32,000 nucleotides of DNA. Source: Candidatus Saccharimonadota bacterium (GTDB lineage Bacteria > Patescibacteriota > Gracilibacteria > BD1-5 > UBA6164). Numbering within the stretch: position 1 is the stretch's first letter; the number at the start of each line of letters is the position of its first letter. This document shows, piece after piece, positions 5,757 through 25,667 of this stretch. Below the pieces are notes generated by a model. The model saw only the letters and a list, made by a program, of their open reading frames with translations. It was not told where the DNA came from and did not search any database. The position numbers and the translations under genes are program-made. The stretch lies in the NCBI GenBank assembly GCA_004563595.2, contig CP042461.1:1170001-1202000 (forward strand). Reading direction: 5' to 3'.

Positions 5757-6035
5757 TTATATCTCTATTTTTATTTTTGCATCTAATCAAGATAAAATTC
5801 TTCATAATGTTTTCATACTGATATTTGCATTTCAGCTTTCTATTCTTGCAATTACAGACTGAGTTGTTCATATTTTTTTTGCAAGTTCGAATTGTGAAAG
5901 TCTTCTTTTATTCCTAATTTCTTTAATTTGAATACTTAAAAGCTCATTTAATAAAGCTTTTTCGCATTTTTCTTTTAACGTTGGGTCTTTTCTAAAAAGC
6001 TCTTCCATATGAGCATCAAAAGTATTTTCTTTCAT
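5757..6035 (-). CDS. higA: XRE-family helix-turn-helix antitoxin (HigA-like)
   Basis: ATG 6035..6033, TAA 5759..5757. Contains IKEIRNKRRLSQFELAKKIGTTQSVIARIESGNANISMKTLGRIL, a typical HTH_3 domain. It follows the toxin gene, the higBA gene order. Confidence 0.8.
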
Positions 6036-6050
6036 TTTTTAAAATATTAT

Positions 6051-6088
6051 ATTATATCAACTATGCTATATTATATCAAATATGCTAT
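6051..6088. repeat. tandem 19-bp direct repeat (2 copies, 1 mismatch)
   Basis: attatatcaaCtatgctat / attatatcaaAtatgctat. It spans the toxin stop codon and lies just upstream of the antitoxin ATG. Confidence 0.8.
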
Positions 6089-6438
6089 ATTTTTCAAGCC
6101 CTTTTTATATAATCGTACTTATATTCTTCTACTCTTTTAATAATAGATCATTTTAATTTATTATCTTTTTTTAAAAAACCATCTAGTAATAACACAACAT
6201 TATCCTGATGATGAAAATAAAACATTCTTCCTATATTATTTCCGTACCTTATTCTTAACTCAAATATACCATTTTTAATATATTTTACATCTCATGCCCC
6301 TAGCAAATCAAAACTTGATAGTTTAATTTTTCAATATACCTTTGATAATAAACCTGGTTGTTCATGAGCCATTTTAGTTAAAAATATTTTCATTGGAATA
6401 GCTCAATTTTCTTTTTCATAATATATAACCTCTTTCAT
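6085..6438 (-). CDS. higB: RelE/ParE-superfamily toxin, HigB / phage Gp49-like
   Basis: ATG 6438..6436, TAG 6087..6085. Contains GIFELRIRYGNNIGRMFYFHHQDNVVLLLDGFLKKDNKLKGSIIKRVEEY, the typical Gp49/HigB core, and lies upstream of an HTH antitoxin. Confidence 0.75.
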
Positions 6439-16047: not shown

Positions 16048-17070
16048 ATGACAAATTTAAAACGAAACATAAATCAAAACTCAAATATATCACAAATAAT
16101 GAATGAGTACGGTGATTTTATTTGAACTCAGTTTCATGGAACTACTATAAATTCAGTAGATGAGTTTTCAAAACATATTAATGATACACTAAAAACTGAG
16201 AAGAGAAGCCTGATACCTATCTCTTCATACTCTTGAAGGTGAAAAAGCACATTTGTTGACGACTTAACCGAAGAGTGAATTATTTTACCAAAAAAATGAG
16301 AGGCTATCACAGGGTATGTTGTATGAGATAAAATTGATTCAAAATGATATATTCATGGAAATACTTCTGTATTTCATGCTGAAGCTGATTGGTTTTTTGA
16401 AGCTTTATGACAAGATAGGTACGATCAAATGATGGAAACCTATGAAAATTTTGTAAAATATTATTGAGATGAACAGCACGCTGTATCAGTTATATTAAAA
16501 TTTTTGAATCAGAATAAATACTTTGTAGAAAGGTGAGTCTATGGAAAAACCCAGGACGAGAAAACTAAGAAACAGAAAACTGCAAAATTATTCTTTGATG
16601 AATCTCCTGAAGATAATTCAAGACTTACTATTCTAGACTGAACAAATTCCATTGAAATAGCTAACTTAGTAAAGGATGCTACTTCTCAAAATAAGATTAA
16701 AATTTTAAAAATATTAATTGACCCTTGCCCTGAAACGTCTTTTATGTGAATATTAAAAAGAGATGTTCTTCACTTAGAAAAAGACTTAGATATTGTCTTA
16801 AATTTCAGATTAAAAGAGTTCGCATATATAACGAAAAGATGGATAAAAGAGGCTCTTGAAGATAAAGAAACTCTATTATATGATGATTATGATAGATTTA
16901 ATTATAGCTTTCATCCAAATTTTCTAACCAATGTGATAAGAAAGTTAGAATTACATAAAAAACTCCTTTTATCATCTCTCAAAGAAGAAGACACAAAAGC
17001 ATTTATTGAAGTATTCTCAAATAATTTAATAGAAACTTTTACAAGAATGTTAGATAATAAAAATTCATAA
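16048..17070 (+). CDS. P-loop NTPase/kinase-like hypothetical protein
   Basis: ATG 16048, TAA 17068-17070, 340 aa, 12 in-frame TGA. Walker A-like SSYSGRGKSTFV, where both flanking Gly are TGA. Candidate Walker B LTILDG. Confidence 0.6.
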
Positions 17071-17088
17071 AAATATTAAGAGAATATT

Positions 17089-17116
17089 AAAACCCCTGTC
17101 TATCGACAGGGGTTTT
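17089..17116. terminator. bidirectional intrinsic terminator
   Basis: aaaaCCCCTGTCtatcGACAGGGGtttt sits between convergent genes. Confidence 0.8.
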
Positions 17117-17118
17117 AG

Positions 17119-17535
17119 TTATGCGACCATAGTCAAGAAGTCAGCTCTATTCCAAAATGACGGTTGCTCTCTATGCTCTCGTATGAAATGACGTTTTTCA
17201 TACTTTAGATTTTCTACACCTAAGCATACAAATCTAGCAGCATCTAAATGATTACGCGCAATTACATAATCAATTTTTCGAAGAGGGATATCACCACTTA
17301 CGGCAAATATTTTCTTTGAGCGACTGTTCAGGTTAGTAAACATGCCCAAATATTCCAAAACTATTTTTTTCTCTCCAGCAAACTTAAGCAGGTAAGTAAA
17401 TTCATCTCCTTTTTTATACTTCACACCTTCAGAAAGTACTTCTTCAAGTGTCTTATTCTCTTCCTCCATTTTTGCAATAATTTCTTTCGGAATAACACTT
17501 TTAACGATTTCATTATTAACTGACACCTGAGACAT
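17119..17535 (-). CDS. hypothetical protein (TGA-free, strong SD)
   Basis: This is a complete ORF even under the standard code (138 aa, TAA stop). AAGGAGA lies 6 nt upstream of the ATG. All 6 Gly codons that were checked are GGN, and it uses CGN Arg codons. Confidence 0.7.
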   Translation of the reverse strand: MSQVSVNNEIVKSVIPKEIIAKMEEENKTLEEVLSEGVKYKKGDEFTYLLKFAGEKKIVLEYLGMFTNLNSRSKKIFAVSGDIPLRKIDYVIARNHLDAARFVCLGVENLKYEKRHFIREHREQPSFWNRADFLTMVA

Positions 17536-17636
17536 ACCCTTTCTCCTTTTTATAGAGTTGTTTTACAATATAGTATAATCATTACAGAACTGGACTATAT
17601 AGTTATAAATCTAAATGTCAATATTTTTCATAAACT

Positions 17637-17662
17637 AAAACCACGCTAACGCGTGGTTTTTT
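17637..17662 (-). terminator. intrinsic terminator
   Basis: aaaaCCACGCtaacGCGTGGtttttt lies directly after the TAG at 17663-17665. Confidence 0.8.
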
Positions 17663-18061
17663 CTATGGATTAGAATGTGGGATTAAAACTCTATTAGAGT
17701 CATGCTTTGGAGCTGTTCCTTCCTCTCTATTTGGTTTTAACAAGGCTAACAACTCCTTAGGAGCATCTTTAGCAGTATAACTAAAGCTTATTTCTTCAGA
17801 AAATAAGTGCACAACCACCTCTATCCTATCTTTTGTATACGAGACTCGACTTACTTCGAACTCTTTCTTGATTAATTCATCTATTCCTGGAAACTTGGGT
17901 TTCCCTAATTTTTTATAGATATCACCCTGTTCTATTTTTTCAATAAAACTTTTCCACATTGTTTTTGTTTGTTCAAGCTCTTCATTATATAGGGCCTCCT
18001 GTTTAATTTCATCAAGCATATCAAGCACTGTTGAAGCTTTAGAATTTGTTTTTTTTGCCAT
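17663..18061 (-). CDS. hypothetical protein (TGA-free, strong SD)
   Basis: This is a complete ORF under the standard code (132 aa, TAG stop). GGAGGT lies upstream of the ATG, as tTGGAGGTtagttacaATG. No family recognised. Confidence 0.7.
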   Translation of the reverse strand: MAKKTNSKASTVLDMLDEIKQEALYNEELEQTKTMWKSFIEKIEQGDIYKKLGKPKFPGIDELIKKEFEVSRVSYTKDRIEVVVHLFSEEISFSYTAKDAPKELLALLKPNREEGTAPKHDSNRVLIPHSNP

Positions 18062-18158
18062 TGTAACTAACCTCCAACTTTTAAAGTTAATACAAAACTA
18101 AAATTTAAGTAAGTATATTATATAGATAAAATATATAATATCAATAGACTCAATCAAT

Positions 18159-21100
18159 TTAAAATACCTTTGATCTTTTCAAGATCATACTTGAAAAGAT
18201 GAAAATTAACAAGAATAATAAGAAGTATAGTATCTGAAAATTTGCTTTCATTCATACTATTTCAACGTCATCGGCAAGAGAAGTAATTATAAATGTATTG
18301 CTCTTTTTTTTATTTTTTATCTTTTTTTGAGAAACAATTTCTTTCTTCTTATAGCTTAAAACGGTATTCACGTAATTTTCGTCCAAGGTAACATATGATT
18401 GTTTTTTAATTGCAAAGATTTGTCATACCTGATCTTCAACTCGGAAGCTTACATGAAAGTCTCAAGCTGAAAGATCAGTTATTTTAATAGAATATTTTCA
18501 AGTACTATCAGAAACCGTCATATATTCTTTATTTCACAACAATATAAATATTTTTAAATTTGCTTCTGTATTTCCATATATTTTTAATGATTTTTTTTGT
18601 TTTTTTATCGTTTTTGAGAAATGAACTCTCTTTCTTTTTTCTCACTTTGAAGATATAATCTTTCATGACCCATCCCATAATTGAGAAAAATATTTTTTAC
18701 TATTTTTCATTTGAGATTGAGAAAAAATTGAAATTTTCTTTTCTTTTTTCAATATTTCTTTTTCTACAAAATAGACGAACTGTTTCATATTTATTTGATA
18801 CTCTTCTCATAGAAAAATCTCTTCCTCCTCTTCTTCTATTTCAGCTATAATGACCTTTTCTTCTTGAGCCAGCGCTAACATTTCCTTTTTTATTTCTCAC
18901 TCTGACCAAATTCATATTCTTTGTTTTTTTGCTTTATTTTGTGCTTTTTTAAATTGAACAGAGTATTGGAATGGGAATCTTAGATATGCTCTCGCATATC
19001 ATTTTTCAATTAATAATTTATTAAAAAAAATGTCTTTTTCCTCTTTTCATGGCAGATATACATATCCAAGTAAACGACCATATTTATCTCGATAATTTCT
19101 TACATTTTGTTTTATAACAATATTTTTTCATTCAAGCATCATTTTTGTAAAATTTGATGCCTCTTTTCCATAAAATTGAACTTCTTTTTTTGGATGTTTT
19201 GTCTCAGGTGTATCTACTCCGACAAGACGTAATTTTTCAGTTTTTCCATTCTGATATTTTATGACAATAGTATCTCCATCTACCACTCTCTCGACCATAA
19301 CTTTTTGCTCTGTAAATTCTCAATTATCATGATTCAAAATGTATCATGAAGGCATTTCAAAATCCCAAAACAAAGTATCAATATTAGTGTTATTATATAT
19401 GAGATGTACTTCATCAACCGAATTATTTAAGGTAATATGTGTTTCATTTTTATAAAATCTTCTTATTTTACCTGGATTTAAAAAAGACTCTTTTTTTATT
19501 ACATATTCCCTACTTCCCTTTTTTAAAGTATCATCAATTATGAGTCAGCTAAGATTTAATTTTTGAGTTCAGGTATTTTTTATTTCTATATATTCAAATG
19601 TATCATTCCCATCAGGATTTGCAAGTAGCGCATGTATTTTTAAATTTGAAAATATATTATGATCAATGAAATTTTCTTCTATTGCTCAATTATCTAAGAC
19701 TTCCACAAAAAAAGAATCCTGAGATTCTTCTCAAAACTTATCTCGTACTCGCAGAGTCACTTCATATTTTCAAGTCTCATACCACATTCATGCGGGGTTA
19801 CTCTTATCGCTGCTTATACCATTTCAAAAATCCCAGAAATATCTTAAATTTTCTCGATCAGGATCACTACTCTCAGTTCCAGTAAGATTTATATTACATT
19901 TTTCTACTCATCTGCATACAACTCTATTTTTTTGTATAGATTTTGTTTTTGTTTCTTTTCATTGTAATGTAATTACAGCATTTGGGGCTCTATTATTTTT
20001 TTTTCACATACTTATATATGTGTTTTTAAACTCAAGATTTTTGATTATTATTGTATTATACTTCTTATTATAAATAGTGAGTTGTAGTTTATAATCTCAT
20101 GGCCTATAATAAATAAGTCCTGGATTACAACTAGTAATATACTTTTCCTTCACATTTCATCATCAGAAGTCCCAAATACATCTTTCTTGATAGCTATTTT
20201 GGTATTTAAAGTTCACTTTACAAATCTCACTCCTACAGGTATTATTTTCATCTAAACCTGACTGAATAATAATATTTTTCACTGACTCTATTCGGGAAGT
20301 TCATCATCAAGAGCCTACGTTTCTTTTTACTCACTTCTCTTCTTTAAGAATTATATTTTGGAAAACAATACTTTTCTCGTTATAGTTTTCGTTATTTCCC
20401 TTCTCTAAAATCTTTACAATTATTTCAAAAGTTCAAGTTTCATAATCAATATATCATGGATTACATTTTTGATCCATATTATTGGTTTGATAGCTTCAAG
20501 ATCAAAAAGACCATAAACATTCATAATCTTTCTCTTTCAATTCTCAGGTAAAACTTTTACTTACGTCTAGGTTCACCTTACAATCTTCTTTTATACACTT
20601 CCATATATTTCAAGTTCATGAGTATTCTAAACCACTTTGAATGTCTAATACTATTTCAGGAAGCTTTGCCAGACTTCATGTTTGAATAGTCCCGGTTCAC
20701 ATATCTATTCCCTCCATCTGGAGTGCAATTACTCCAGTTGCAGTTTCTATATCTCAAGTTCATGATTCTATTTGCTCACTTCAATTTTCCTCAATTTGAC
20801 TCCATATATTTTGAATGATTATAGTAGATTTTTTTAAAATTTTATCATTCTCTTTCTCATATATCTTATATTCTATTTCAAATGTTCATGTAGAGTAATT
20901 TACGTATCAAGGATTACATTTTTCTGAAGTATTTTGAGTTTTATAGGTTCATCATCCAAAATTCCATATACATGTATAATTTTTCTCTTGAAACGATCAT
21001 GTAAAAGTGAGACTAAGATCTAGATTTATTTTACATTCTTCTTTTTTACAATTCCATATATTTCAGGTTCATGAATATTCAAGTCCACTTTGAATATCCA

Positions 21101-21752
21101 ATACAAGATCAGGTACCTCTCAAATACTTCCTGTACTTACTATGAGTCAGCTACCTGTATCTATAACTCAAGTATTTCCCTCTACAGATCAAGTCTGTGA
21201 TTCTCAACTTCATAATTCACCTATAATCTCTCAAGTTCAAGTTTCATTTTCTAAGTCCACTGCCACTTCTACGATTTCTTTTTTTATAACGATTTTTCTC
21301 TCTTTATAATTTTTTCCATTCTTTTTTCCAACTATTTTAAAGAGTACTTCAGTCTCTCACTCTGGAAAAATAATAGTGGTTGGATTACATTTATTTATCT
21401 GTTCTAGGTCAGAACTAAAGAATATCTCACAAAGCAATTTCGTAGAAATATCTTTGCCCTGATTATCAACAATTTTAAAGTTTACTTTACATTCATCTTT
21501 TGTTTCATCACAGACATATATATCTTGAATTTGATTTTTCTGTTTTATGTATGATGGGTTCTGAAATATAACATTAAAATCAGGCACCACAAAAGTAACT
21601 TCTTCTTTTTTAATGGTTATTCAAGTCTGAGTATTACCTAAAGATAGTTCTGGAATTTTAACATCCTCAATTGATTCTGTTAAAATTAATCATGAATTTC
21701 AGTAAACCTGAAACGTAAAAAGAAAATAAAATAAAAAAATAAACCTCCTCAA
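18159..21752 (-). CDS. large secreted, membrane-anchored multidomain nuclease (Cys-repeats, PKD, lamin-tail domain, SNase/thermonuclease domain, C-terminal TM helix)
   Basis: Every codon was translated in the frame of track ORF 21357..21590; it is open from TAA 21755..21753 to TAA 18161..18159 (1198 codons). The only start is TTG 21752..21750, giving MRRFIFLFYFLFTFQVYG (signal). It carries five ~95-aa four-Cys repeats with a KCNP motif. PKD: YFWDFGNGISSDKSNP..GKYEVTLRVRD. LTD: LKIHALLANPDGNDTFEYIEIKNTG. SNase: VVDGDTIVI..LRLVGVDTPET..YGKEAS..DKYGRLLGYVY..GYARAY..GIWS. The end is NFQILYFLLFLLIFISSMILKRSKVF. Confidence 0.85.
20199..21104 (-). repeat. two tandem 453-nt coding repeats inside the nuclease gene
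   Basis: VLDIQSGLEYSGTGNIW begins at 21104 and again at 20651, a period of exactly 453 nt (151 aa). The DNA blocks 21054-21113 and 20601-20660 are visibly similar. Confidence 0.7.
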
Positions 21753-23707: not shown

Positions 23708-23744
23708 AAAAAAAAGAAAAATAAAGTAGCCGAAACGACTACTT
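23708..23744 (-). terminator. intrinsic terminator overlapping the stop codon
   Basis: AAGTAGCCGaaaCGACTACTT (one mismatch), followed on the minus strand by a long U-run. Confidence 0.55.
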
Positions 23745-24179
23745 ATATATTGGTTTACAACTTGTAATGTCACTTATTCCTAATAAGTCGGAATAACTAG
23801 CATAAAAGTCATAGTAAGCACTATACGAAGAACTTATAGCATATTCATTTAAAAAACTTATAAAATAAGCCCGTTCAGTATTTAATGATTTTAATAAAGC
23901 CTTTGTTGCTGAAATTTCCCTCCTTATTTTTTTAACACGTGTATCAAGATTAGTTATGTTTTCCTTATATATCGGAACCATATTTTTATGACTTTCTGTC
24001 CTTTTTTTAATTTTTAACAGCTTTCGATAATATACTAAGTCTTTCCCCTTATTCTTTGCTTCTAAATTCAAGCATAAATTTCTTTCTTTTAAGCTGACTA
24101 TCTTCTGTTCTACATCAATTCTCTTTTTTTGGAGATATGTAAAATCAGAAATAATAGTATCACCTCCATATACAAACAT
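23739..24179 (-). CDS. hypothetical coiled-coil protein (TGA-free, strong SD)
   Basis: This is the frame of track ORF 23739..24245. The start is placed at ATG 24179..24177 because AAAGGAGC sits 7 nt upstream. Product: MFVYGGDTIISDFTYLQKKRIDVEQKIVSLKERN.., 146 aa, TAG stop, no in-frame TGA. Confidence 0.6.
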   Translation of the reverse strand: MFVYGGDTIISDFTYLQKKRIDVEQKIVSLKERNLCLNLEAKNKGKDLVYYRKLLKIKKRTESHKNMVPIYKENITNLDTRVKKIRREISATKALLKSLNTERAYFISFLNEYAISSSYSAYYDFYASYSDLLGISDITSCKPIYK

Positions 24180-24364
24180 AATAACAGCTCCTTTTATTAT
24201 ATGATTGTAATGTTTTTCAAGATTAATAAAATAATGGAAAATCATAAAAAGTCAATTGATATATTTCTTTGCAAAATACTCTTTTTCTTTTACACTTATT
24301 TTTAAGAATAATTTAAGATACAAAATTATACTCATACATACTTAAATACTAAAGAAAATAACAA

Positions 24365-25279: not shown

Positions 25280-25367
25280 AAAAATTGACATCTTAAAAAT
25301 ATTGAGTACATTTCGTGTGGTAATTATTATAACTACAATAAGAAACTACTAAAAAAAGGGGAAGCTC

Positions 25368-25667
25368 ATGGAAAATAATCAGGAGATAAATCAAGAATCA
25401 GTTTATGAGGAAATAATTAGTAAATACTCTGATCCTTCTCGTACATTAAGAAAAGAGGATATCGAGGCAAGTAGAAAAGATATACGAAAAGGGTACAAAT
25501 ACCTCCTTTTACTATTCTTAATAACTGTATCGATTGTAATCAAAGTGTTTTTCAACAATGAACTCATTGCAGCAATAACATACTTGAAAGATCTATTATT
25601 ATTCACAATTTTACCATATATTATGGAGATTTATTCTGAATTATCACTTGGTATTACATTCCCATAA
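25368..25667 (+). CDS. small two-TM membrane protein, hypothetical (TGA-free)
   Basis: This is a track ORF, complete under the standard code. AAGGGGAAG lies upstream of the ATG. It has hydrophobic segments YLLLLFLITVSIVIKVFF and LLLFTILPYIMEIY and is followed by a strong terminator. Confidence 0.6.
   Translation: MENNQEINQESVYEEIISKYSDPSRTLRKEDIEASRKDIRKGYKYLLLLFLITVSIVIKVFFNNELIAAITYLKDLLLFTILPYIMEIYSELSLGITFP

What the first reader, a model, noticed from the sequence alone, without database searches (positions are those of the whole stretch)
17089..18158. Two TGA-free genes with strong Shine-Dalgarno sites and their own terminators directly downstream of the giant nuclease
Seen: ORFs 17119..17535 (138 aa) and 17663..18061 (132 aa) are complete under the standard code and contain no in-frame TGA. 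Their immediate neighbours have about 3-4 TGA per 100 codons, and TGA encodes roughly half of all Gly (9 of 16 Gly in ung). All six Gly codons I checked in 17119..17535 are GGN. The gene also uses CGC/CGA/CGT Arg, CCG and GCG codons, which are rare in the flanking genes that use AGA. Both ORFs have canonical SD sequences (AAGGAGA, GGAGGT), whereas most neighbours show none. Each ends in a GC-rich perfect-stem terminator (17089-17116, 17637-17662). With 23739..24179 this makes 416 codons with zero TGA, where about 14-16 would be expected. Inference: these are recently acquired genes from a standard-code donor, either a host bacterium or a phage. Alternatively they are kept decodable in a standard-code cell. 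Their position right after a secreted nuclease also raises an immunity/inhibitor role. No family was recognised for either protein.
Basis: partly seen in the sequence, partly recalled or inferred. Interest (0 to 1): 0.7.

Follow-up and report, generated by a model that had tools for sequence, protein, structure and literature searches.

The report
Foreign TGA-free gene cassettes in Gracilibacterium
Two small orphan genes in a bacterium that reads the stop codon TGA as glycine avoid TGA entirely and carry expression signals unlike their neighbours, which marks them, and two more genes nearby, as probable recent imports from a gene pool that does not read TGA as an amino acid; their function is unknown.

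Summary
The window comes from Ca. Gracilibacteria bacterium 28_42_T64, a closed code-25 genome. ORFs 17119..17535 and 17663..18061 (both minus strand) have 0 TGA among 10 Gly codons, against 58% TGA in native genes. They also have excess CGN Arg codons, the highest GC3 in the window, strong Shine-Dalgarno sites and the two best minus-strand sigma70-like promoter matches in the 12 kb scanned. Hairpin terminators are present but are common on native genes too, so they are not distinctive.

Two more genes (23739..24179 and 25368..25667) share the signature. As a class: TGA 0/16 vs 354/603 (p=1e-6); CGN 11/24 vs 27/291 (p=1.5e-5). All four sit at synteny breakpoints of a backbone conserved in related Gracilibacteria, and no relative has homologs. 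A relative (L002) carries different TGA-free, SD-led genes in the same slots.

Best explanation: recently acquired, self-contained expression cassettes from a TGA-avoiding, SD-using gene pool, plausibly the code-11-compatible phages described for Gracilibacteria. No donor, homolog, fold or function was found, and protein 1 is an orphan among about 15 billion proteins. A nuclease-immunity role is unsupported. The case is a moderately interesting example of gene flow across a genetic-code boundary.

The parts
17088..17117 (.). Bidirectional intrinsic-terminator hairpin (13-bp stem, loop 4) shared by c1 (minus strand) and the convergent native gene 16048..17070 (plus strand)
   Evidence: dG -22 kcal/mol on either strand
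17119..17535 (-). c1: 138-aa orphan ORF (A9Q91_05545). 0 TGA of 6 Gly codons, CGN 5 of 8 Arg codons, GC3 0.283, pI 8.9. No TM segment or signal peptide seen by eye
17542..17548 (-). Shine-Dalgarno AAGGAGA, 6 nt before the ATG of c1
   Evidence: duplex -8.9 kcal/mol
17594..17621 (-). Sigma70-like promoter TTGACA-16-TATAGT (11 of 12 positions) for c1; implies a leader of about 50 nt
   Evidence: consensus match only, not an experiment
17637..17662 (-). Terminator hairpin AAAACCACGC-GTTA-GCGTGGTTTT directly after the c2 stop codon. It missed the scan's T-tail rule but folds at -15.5 kcal/mol
17663..18061 (-). c2: 132-aa orphan ORF (A9Q91_05550). 0 TGA of 4 Gly codons, CGN 1 of 4 Arg codons, GC3 0.265. 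Helical N-terminal half in a low-confidence model
18070..18075 (-). Shine-Dalgarno GGAGGT, 8 nt before the ATG of c2
   Evidence: duplex -10.5 kcal/mol, the strongest in the window
18117..18144 (-). Sigma70-like promoter TTGATA-16-TATAAT (11 of 12 positions) for c2. It starts 15 nt after the nuclease stop codon
23739..24179 (-). c3: 146-aa orphan of the same class. 0 TGA of 4 Gly codons, CGN 3 of 8 Arg codons, SD AAAGGAG, weak terminator at 23724..23744. Sits in the TrxB|HflX slot
25368..25667 (+). c4: 99-aa orphan of the same class with two hydrophobic segments. 0 TGA of 2 Gly codons, CGN 2 of 4 Arg codons, SD AAAGGGGA, promoter-like site at 25285..25312, strong downstream hairpin. Sits in the NrdB|TrxB slot
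18159..21752 (-). Context only: 1197-aa surface protein with PKD, LTD, SNase and Big_13 domains, 64 TGA. A native-code gene immediately upstream of c2

Best explanation
c1 and c2, together with c3 and c4 elsewhere in the window, are horizontally acquired, self-contained expression cassettes. Each has a promoter, a leader of about 50 nt, a Shine-Dalgarno site, a small ORF and a terminator.

They came from a gene pool in which UGA is not a sense codon and translation starts on SD-led mRNAs. They landed in variable slots between conserved operons of a code-25 Gracilibacterium.

They lack TGA because the donor never used it for glycine. Too little time has passed for the host's GGN-to-TGA drift, and its CGN-to-AGA drift, to erase that signature.

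The most plausible donor pool is the TGA-avoiding, code-11-compatible phages and mobile elements reported for Gracilibacteria. That would also account for the AT-richness and the orphan status of the genes. Entry could be by DNA uptake, since the genome has competence genes and pili, or by abortive infection followed by illegitimate recombination.

In the cell they should be transcribed separately and yield two small cytoplasmic proteins. By analogy with phage morons, I guess an accessory or conflict-type role such as exclusion, anti-defence or regulation.

Shown: the compositional signature, the expression-signal matches, the position at synteny breaks, the absence from relatives and the lack of any homolog. 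Inferred: foreign origin, recency, donor type, entry route and function.
For: - TGA: 0 of 16 Gly codons in the four genes vs 354 of 603 in native genes (Fisher p=1e-6). Off-frame TGA is not depleted.
- CGN Arg: 11 of 24 vs 27 of 291 (p=1.5e-5). GC3 of c1 and c2 is the highest in the window (z=2.4 and 1.95).
- SD: all four genes score -8 to -10.5 kcal/mol, while 26 of 28 native genes have none. Over 197 genes in 11 loci, TGA-free status goes with SD (6 of 12 vs 6 of 185, p=1e-5).
- Promoters: the two best minus-strand matches in the 12 kb scanned lie directly upstream of c1 and c2.
- Synteny: the backbone NrdA/D/G/R/B-TrxB-HflX-134aa-...-WecG-GT-PHP-holB-ComM is conserved in L002, L004, L007 and L008. 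The four genes sit exactly at its breakpoints, and tblastn under code 25 finds no homolog in any relative.
- Generality: L002 carries different TGA-free (0/16 and 0/17 Gly), SD-led genes in the same slots, one with an Amidase_6 domain and weak endolysin PHROG hits.
- Not a high-expression effect: native ribosomal-protein genes have no SD, 1 of 49 Arg codons as CGN, and still use TGA for 25% of Gly.
- Not a short-gene effect: short native genes have a normal TGA share of 0.57, and only 3 of 50 with at least 4 Gly codons are TGA-free.
- Turnover: TGA and GGN at conserved glycines are 15% discordant at about 92% aa identity and 44% discordant at 70-87%. So 0 of 16 implies a short residence time.
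- Candidate donor pool: TGA-free phages predicted to infect Gracilibacteria are documented (PMC10746230).
- Not an artefact: the arrangement is identical in independent assemblies.
Against: - No donor was found. Protein 1 has no credible relative among 1.84 billion cluster representatives (the single hit P0003 is a repeat artefact).
- Protein 2 has none in the 5.8-billion-cluster word search.
- IMG/VR, GenBank phage records, PLSDB plasmids, JGI metagenomes and GTDB genomes gave nothing.
- No integrase, phage structural gene, tRNA or flanking repeats lie nearby.
- The published survey found all integrated prophages of Gracilibacteria to be TGA-dense.
- GC content differs only slightly from the host's.
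- Taken singly, the TGA evidence is weak for c2 (p=0.03) and c4 (p=0.18).
- Half of the TGA-free genes in relatives lack an SD.
- Ribosomal-protein genes show that some selection against TGA exists.
- The background is 11 loci, not the whole genome.
Confidence: 0.65

Rival explanations
1. Native, very highly expressed small genes. Translational selection removes UGA, which would be read by a less efficient tRNA-Gly(UCA), and strong promoters, SD sites and terminators reflect high expression rather than foreign origin.
For: Ribosomal-protein genes in L003 use TGA for only 14 of 55 Gly codons, against about 60-80% elsewhere, so expression-linked avoidance of TGA exists. The promoter and SD matches are strong. 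L17 and L31 genes in relatives are TGA-free.
Against: The same ribosomal-protein genes have no SD and almost no CGN codons. The class genes are rich in CGN, which is rare in this genome and the opposite of codon optimisation. At a 25% TGA share, P(0 of 16) is still about 0.01. The genes have no orthologs in any relative or database, unlike core highly expressed genes.
Confidence: 0.12
2. Immunity or inhibitor proteins for the adjacent SNase-domain nuclease. One or both small proteins would bind and neutralise nuclease that folds in the cytoplasm before export.
For: c2 starts 97 nt after the nuclease stop codon, and c1 follows it. The ortholog of the large protein in L002 apparently lacks the PKD-LTD-SNase segment: the alignment covers residues 61-669 and 1049-1196 only. 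It is followed by YebC, not by c1 or c2. That is one co-occurrence, n=1.
Against: There is no similarity to any known nuclease inhibitor or any solved structure. The nuclease has, by eye, an N-terminal signal-like hydrophobic segment and a C-terminal hydrophobic anchor, so it is probably exported unfolded. To my knowledge, staphylococcal-type nucleases have no cognate immunity proteins. Each small gene has its own promoter and terminator. The idea explains none of the TGA, CGN or SD signature, which c3 and c4 share without being near a nuclease.
Confidence: 0.07
3. The genes are held TGA-free by selection because they must be translated where or when UGA-to-Gly decoding is unavailable. That could be in a standard-code host cell of the epibiont, or during an attack on UGA decoding by a phage.
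For: All four genes combine TGA-freeness with signals that would also work in a typical standard-code bacterium: a near-consensus sigma70 promoter, a canonical SD and an intrinsic terminator. TGA/GGN turnover is fast enough that long-term TGA-freeness would need selection.
Against: No mechanism is known for transferring genes or mRNA from a Gracilibacterium to a host. The retained CGN codons and raised GC3 point to simple recency. There are no orthologs over which to demonstrate conservation of TGA-freeness. TGA-free genes in L009 lack SD.
Confidence: 0.05
4. Artefact: a chimeric assembly that joined standard-code DNA to the Gracilibacterium, or chance ORFs that are not genes.
For: None beyond the atypical composition.
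Against: The sequence is identical in an independent 412-kb assembly at 21x coverage, and the same neighbours appear on at least 4 contigs. The genome was closed and manually curated. The terminator at 17088..17117 is shared with a TGA-rich native gene. The promoter, SD, ATG, stop and terminator are in register for both ORFs. Chance ORFs in this DNA would be expected to carry TGA at roughly the off-frame rate of about 3.5% per codon.
Confidence: 0.02

Closest known systems
Phage 'morons': autonomous promoter-gene-terminator units inserted between conserved genes (concept from lambdoid phage genomics; from my own knowledge)
   Same: Each gene is a monocistronic unit with its own promoter-like site and terminator. 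Its composition differs from that of its neighbours, it is inserted between conserved genes, and it encodes a small orphan protein.
   Different: There is no recognisable prophage around them: the flanks are chromosomal housekeeping genes and a surface-protein gene. The distinguishing mark here is the absence of a recoded codon plus a different mode of translation initiation.
Code-11-compatible (TGA-avoiding) phages predicted to infect Gracilibacteria and Absconditabacteria (Liu et al., mBio 2023, PMC10746230)
   Same: Genes without in-frame TGA associated with a code-25 host. This is a plausible donor pool, and it would explain the AT-richness and orphan status.
   Different: Those are free phage genomes larger than 20 kb. 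The same study found all integrated prophages to be TGA-dense. No sequence similarity between c1-c4 and any viral contig was found.
Genomic islets recognised by atypical codon usage and amelioration (Lawrence-Ochman framework; from my own knowledge)
   Same: Atypical codon usage, absence from relatives, position at synteny breaks, and a compositional 'clock' for residence time.
   Different: The clock here is a reassigned codon (GGN to TGA), which gives an all-or-none marker. No mobility genes or direct repeats are present.
Nuclease-inhibitor pairs (NucA-NuiA, barnase-barstar, colicin DNase-Im; from my own knowledge)
   Same: A small cytoplasmic protein gene immediately downstream of a nuclease gene.
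   Different: No sequence or fold similarity. The nuclease belongs to the SNase family and appears to be exported. The small genes are separate transcription units. The signature is shared by genes that are not next to a nuclease.

Membership tests
Horizontally acquired gene / genomic islet | Codon usage and composition atypical for the resident genome | tested here: met
   TGA 0/16 vs 354/603; CGN 11/24 vs 27/291; GC3 z-scores up to 2.4
Horizontally acquired gene / genomic islet | Absent from the syntenic position in related genomes | tested here: met
   The backbone is conserved in L002, L004, L007 and L008. The slots hold other genes or none, and no tblastn hit was found. The nearest usable relatives are only 68-75% identical in HflX.
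Horizontally acquired gene / genomic islet | Identifiable donor lineage or phylogenetic incongruence | tested here: not met
   No homolog in any collection
Horizontally acquired gene / genomic islet | Mobility genes, tRNA target or flanking repeats | tested here: not met
   No integrase or transposase, no tRNA, and no significant flanking repeats
Phage moron | Own promoter and own terminator flanking a single ORF | tested here: met
   11 of 12 consensus promoter matches and hairpins of -15.5 and -22 kcal/mol. These are sequence matches only.
Phage moron | Located inside a prophage between conserved phage genes | tested here: not met
   Neighbours are a surface nuclease, WecG, HflX, TrxB and Nrd genes
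Nuclease immunity/inhibitor protein | Homology or fold similarity to a known inhibitor family | tested here: not met
   Pfam, NCBIfam, PADLOC, PDB sequence search and Foldseek all negative. The structure models are of low confidence.
Nuclease immunity/inhibitor protein | Physical binding to and inhibition of the cognate nuclease | not testable with these tools
   Needs complex prediction or biochemistry
Type II toxin-antitoxin pair | Two small genes co-transcribed as one operon | tested here: not met
   A 127-nt spacer holds a terminator hairpin and a promoter match
Type II toxin-antitoxin pair | Match to a toxin or antitoxin family | tested here: not met
   No significant Pfam or PADLOC hit. 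By contrast, the Gp49/HTH_3 pair at 5757..6438 is recognised.

The most novel reading that the evidence does not exclude
The TGA-free, SD-led cassettes are not merely recent arrivals. They would be a standing set of 'code-neutral' genes kept free of UGA by selection, because they must be expressed where UGA-to-Gly decoding is absent or disabled. That could be inside the standard-code host or prey cell of the epibiont, or during phage interference with the recoded tRNA or release-factor system.
Probability: 0.05. Interest if true: 0.85.

Novelty: new member of a known kind. Interest (0 to 1): 0.45.

Why it matters
In a genome that reads UGA as glycine, the absence of UGA works as a built-in tag for genes that came from outside the recoded lineage. 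The fraction of glycines already switched to TGA works as a residence clock.

This window shows the tag coinciding with other marks: SD-led leadered mRNAs, CGN Arg codons and raised GC3, at synteny breakpoints. If the pattern holds genome-wide, it would give a simple way to catalogue gene flow across a genetic-code boundary in Gracilibacteria and Absconditabacteria. It could also test whether the code-11-compatible phages proposed for these hosts really deliver genes to them.

There is a practical side. These genes can be expressed unchanged in E. coli, so their function is experimentally accessible, unlike most genes of these uncultured bacteria.

Tried and rejected
- Family assignment: Pfam, PHROGs, PADLOC and NCBIfam gave only sub-threshold noise. 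Examples are REase_II at E=0.003 over 54 residues, DUF7900, FlhF and Ead_Ea22.
- Homolog searches: only self-hits for both proteins. The exhaustive HMMER search for protein 1 returned one hit, P0003, whose score is inflated by five near-identical repeats. I rejected it.
- Structure: single-sequence AlphaFold models were poor (pLDDT 37 and 52). Foldseek of the better model against the PDB gave nothing (best E=2.3). I did not run the other fold searches, because they would be meaningless on such models.
- Paralogy between c1 and c2: none.
- Phage and plasmid origin by similarity: tblastn against GenBank phages and PLSDB, and IMG/VR scans for c1-c4 and for the two TGA-free genes of L002, were all negative.
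- Metagenome and GTDB genome scans were negative and did not even recover the source genome, so those collections do not hold it.
- RNA elements: Rfam gave only sub-threshold matches to the terminator hairpins, and there are no tRNAs.
- Mobile-element boundaries: no convincing direct or inverted repeats.
- P0005, a 95%-identical HflX that looked like a close relative, is the same gene translated with TGA=Trp (19 TGA in 386 codons).
- The 106-aa and 100-aa slot genes of L007 and L008 looked like a partly ameliorated older acquisition. They align at only 33% identity, so I dropped them as evidence.
- De novo gene birth: rejected, because random local sequence would carry in-frame TGA at roughly the off-frame rate.

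Full report
**Identity of the window.** Both target proteins match only themselves in the 5.8-billion-cluster protein collection. They are named hypothetical proteins A9Q91_05545 and A9Q91_05550 of Candidatus Gracilibacteria bacterium 28_42_T64, on a 1.34-Mb contig. This is the closed, manually curated BD1-5 genome from an oil-degrading enrichment: 28.9% G+C, code 25, no prfB, with competence genes and pili (PMC6851277). Calling ORFs with TGA as a sense codon gives a dense, sensible gene map. Recognisable motifs have Gly at TGA positions, and the Pfam assignments fit a coherent backbone.

**Check of the observation.**
- The ORFs 17119..17535 (c1, 138 aa) and 17663..18061 (c2, 132 aa) lie on the minus strand, downstream of the 1197-aa ORF 18159..21752. 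That ORF carries PKD, LTD, SNase and Big_13 domains and 64 TGA codons.
- Native genes in the window use TGA for 58% of Gly codons, or 3.8 per 100 codons. c1 has 0 of 6 and c2 has 0 of 4. Jointly p=1.7e-4; singly 0.005 and 0.03.
- TGA in the two other reading frames is as common in these genes as elsewhere, so only in-frame TGA is missing.
- c1 uses CGN for 5 of 8 Arg codons, against about 9% in native genes. c1 and c2 have the two highest GC3 values in the window.
- The SD sites are real and unusual. The anti-SD duplex energies are -8.9 and -10.5 kcal/mol, while 26 of 28 native genes score near zero.
- The two best minus-strand sigma70-type matches in a 12-kb scan (11 of 12 positions) sit directly upstream of c1 and c2.
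- Both hairpin terminators exist, at -22 and -15.5 kcal/mol. Many native genes have equally strong ones, so this part of the finding is true but not distinctive.
- An independent 412-kb ENA assembly is 100% identical over 6.4 kb spanning the locus. The same arrangement is recorded on at least four contigs, so a chimeric assembly is excluded.

**The finding is part of a class.**
- Scoring SD strength for every gene showed two more small ORFs that are both SD-led and TGA-free. They are 23739..24179 (c3, whose true start lies inside the longer ORF 23739..24335) and 25368..25667 (c4).
- The four genes together have TGA 0 of 16 against 354 of 603 in native genes (p=1e-6). Their CGN count is 11 of 24 against 27 of 291 (p=1.5e-5).
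- Each is monocistronic, with a terminator and a leader of about 50 nt. c1, c2 and c4 have strong promoter-like sites; c3's best match is only 9 of 12.
- Native genes mostly lack an SD. They show a peak of -10-like boxes ending 13-18 nt before the start codon, which suggests very short leaders.

**Synteny.**
- I used HflX, which lies in the middle of the four genes, to find relatives. The 95%-identical hit P0005 is the same gene translated with TGA=Trp.
- The real relatives are 65-75% identical. Loci from L002, L004, L007 and L008 share a long backbone with the window: NrdA, NrdD, NrdG, NrdR, NrdB, TrxB, HflX, a 134-aa gene, WecG, a glycosyltransferase, PHP, holB and ComM.
- c4 lies in the NrdB|TrxB slot and c3 in the TrxB|HflX slot. 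c2 and c1 lie in the slot between the 134-aa gene and WecG, together with the nuclease and two TGA-rich orphans.
- In relatives these slots are empty or hold other genes: DAHP synthase, DUF559, PemK, ParE, Mur ligase.
- tblastn under code 25 finds the backbone genes in the relatives but no trace of c1-c4.
- L002 carries two different genes in the same two slots that are also TGA-free (0 of 16 and 0 of 17 Gly) and SD-led. One has an Amidase_6 domain and weak endolysin PHROG hits.
- Over 197 genes from 11 loci, 12 are TGA-free. Six of those have an SD, against 6 of 185 others (p=1e-5).

**Controls.**
- Short native genes have the normal TGA share of 0.57, and only 3 of 50 with at least four Gly codons lack TGA.
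- Ribosomal-protein genes in L003 do use less TGA (25%). But they have no SD and almost no CGN codons, so the class does not resemble highly expressed native genes.
- At conserved glycines, TGA and GGN are 44% discordant between the window and relatives at 70-87% identity. They are 15% discordant between L007 and L008 at about 92% identity.
- With a two-state model of my own, sixteen glycines all staying GGN is plausible only for residence times no longer than roughly that second divergence. The alternative is selection.

**What the proteins are.**
- No family, fold or homolog could be assigned. All profile libraries gave only noise. The PDB sequence search found nothing.
- The exhaustive HMMER scan of 1.84 billion cluster representatives for c1 gave only a repeat-inflated spurious hit.
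- Single-sequence AlphaFold models were of low confidence, and Foldseek on the better one was negative.
- Viral, phage, plasmid, metagenome and genome scans were negative.
- By eye, c1 (pI 8.9) and c2 (pI 6.3) have no hydrophobic segments, so they are probably cytoplasmic. c4 has two hydrophobic segments.

**Interpretation.**
- The most economical explanation is recent horizontal acquisition of self-contained cassettes from a gene pool that does not read UGA as Gly and that relies on SD-led initiation.
- Published work shows that many phages predicted to infect Gracilibacteria lack in-frame TGA and may shuttle between recoded and standard-code hosts (PMC10746230). Such elements would be AT-rich, full of orphans and built from promoter-gene-terminator units, so they fit as donors. 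This step is inference, because no similarity to any phage was found, and that study found integrated prophages to be TGA-dense.
- The nuclease-immunity idea explains none of the signature. It has only one weak point in its favour: the L002 ortholog of the large protein apparently lacks the SNase segment and is not followed by c1 or c2.
- The idea that the genes are kept TGA-free by selection, to be readable in a standard-code cell or when UGA decoding is under attack, cannot be excluded. It has no positive support.

**Verdict.** The immunity suggestion is unsupported. Function remains unknown. The case belongs to a known kind, laterally acquired moron-like orphan genes. Its useful twist is that a reassigned codon tags the imports. 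I found no prior description of such chromosomal TGA-free genes in the held literature.

Noticed in passing
window 18159..21752 (aa ~617-951 of the product); L002:11773..14991: The ortholog of the large surface protein in relative L002 aligns only to residues 61-669 and 1049-1196. The LTD-SNase segment therefore seems to be a lineage-specific domain insertion. Six of the gene's eight CGN codons fall in residues 601-900, although that part does contain TGA.
   Followed up: partly
window 5757..6035 and 6085..6438 (both minus strand): A Gp49/HigB-like toxin gene and an HTH_3 antitoxin-like gene sit between ComM and the pyruvyl transferase, which are adjacent in L007. This inserted pair carries 5 and 4 TGA codons, so it is a mobile module that is adapted to code 25, unlike c1-c4.
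   Followed up: partly
all native genes of the window and L001-L010: Most native genes have no Shine-Dalgarno site. They show a peak of -10-like hexamers ending 13-18 nt before the start codon (0.46 per gene against about 0.2 elsewhere). This suggests leaderless or very short-leader mRNAs as the normal mode in these Gracilibacteria.
   Followed up: partly
L002:5222..6088 (minus strand) and L002:8168..8833 (plus strand): A related Gracilibacterium has a 288-aa orphan and a 221-aa Amidase_6 protein in the NrdB|TrxB and TrxB|HflX slots. They have 0 of 16 and 0 of 17 Gly codons as TGA, and an AAAAGGAAA SD-like site. So the same signature occurs there on different genes.
   Followed up: partly
L009:11329..13191: Three adjacent TGA-free genes (Polyketide_cyc2, an orphan and an Asp/Glu racemase; 0 of 24 Gly codons) without SD sites, in a more distant Gracilibacterium. 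This may be an imported block from a different kind of donor.
   Followed up: no
L003:428..2917 and L005:253..1526: Ribosomal-protein genes use TGA for only about 25% of Gly codons (counted in L003), against 60-80% in neighbouring genes. This hints at translational selection against the reassigned codon in highly expressed genes.
   Followed up: partly
protein P0005: Public collections hold a second version of this organism's HflX at 95% identity. The difference equals its 19 TGA codons read as Trp (code 4). Such mistranslated duplicates can be mistaken for close relatives.
   Followed up: yes
window 17248..17649 (plus strand): A 133-aa ORF under code 25 runs antisense to c1 and contains 2 TGA. 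I saw no promoter, SD or terminator positioned to serve it, so it is most likely spurious. It illustrates how many shadow ORFs appear when only TAA and TAG act as stops.
   Followed up: no
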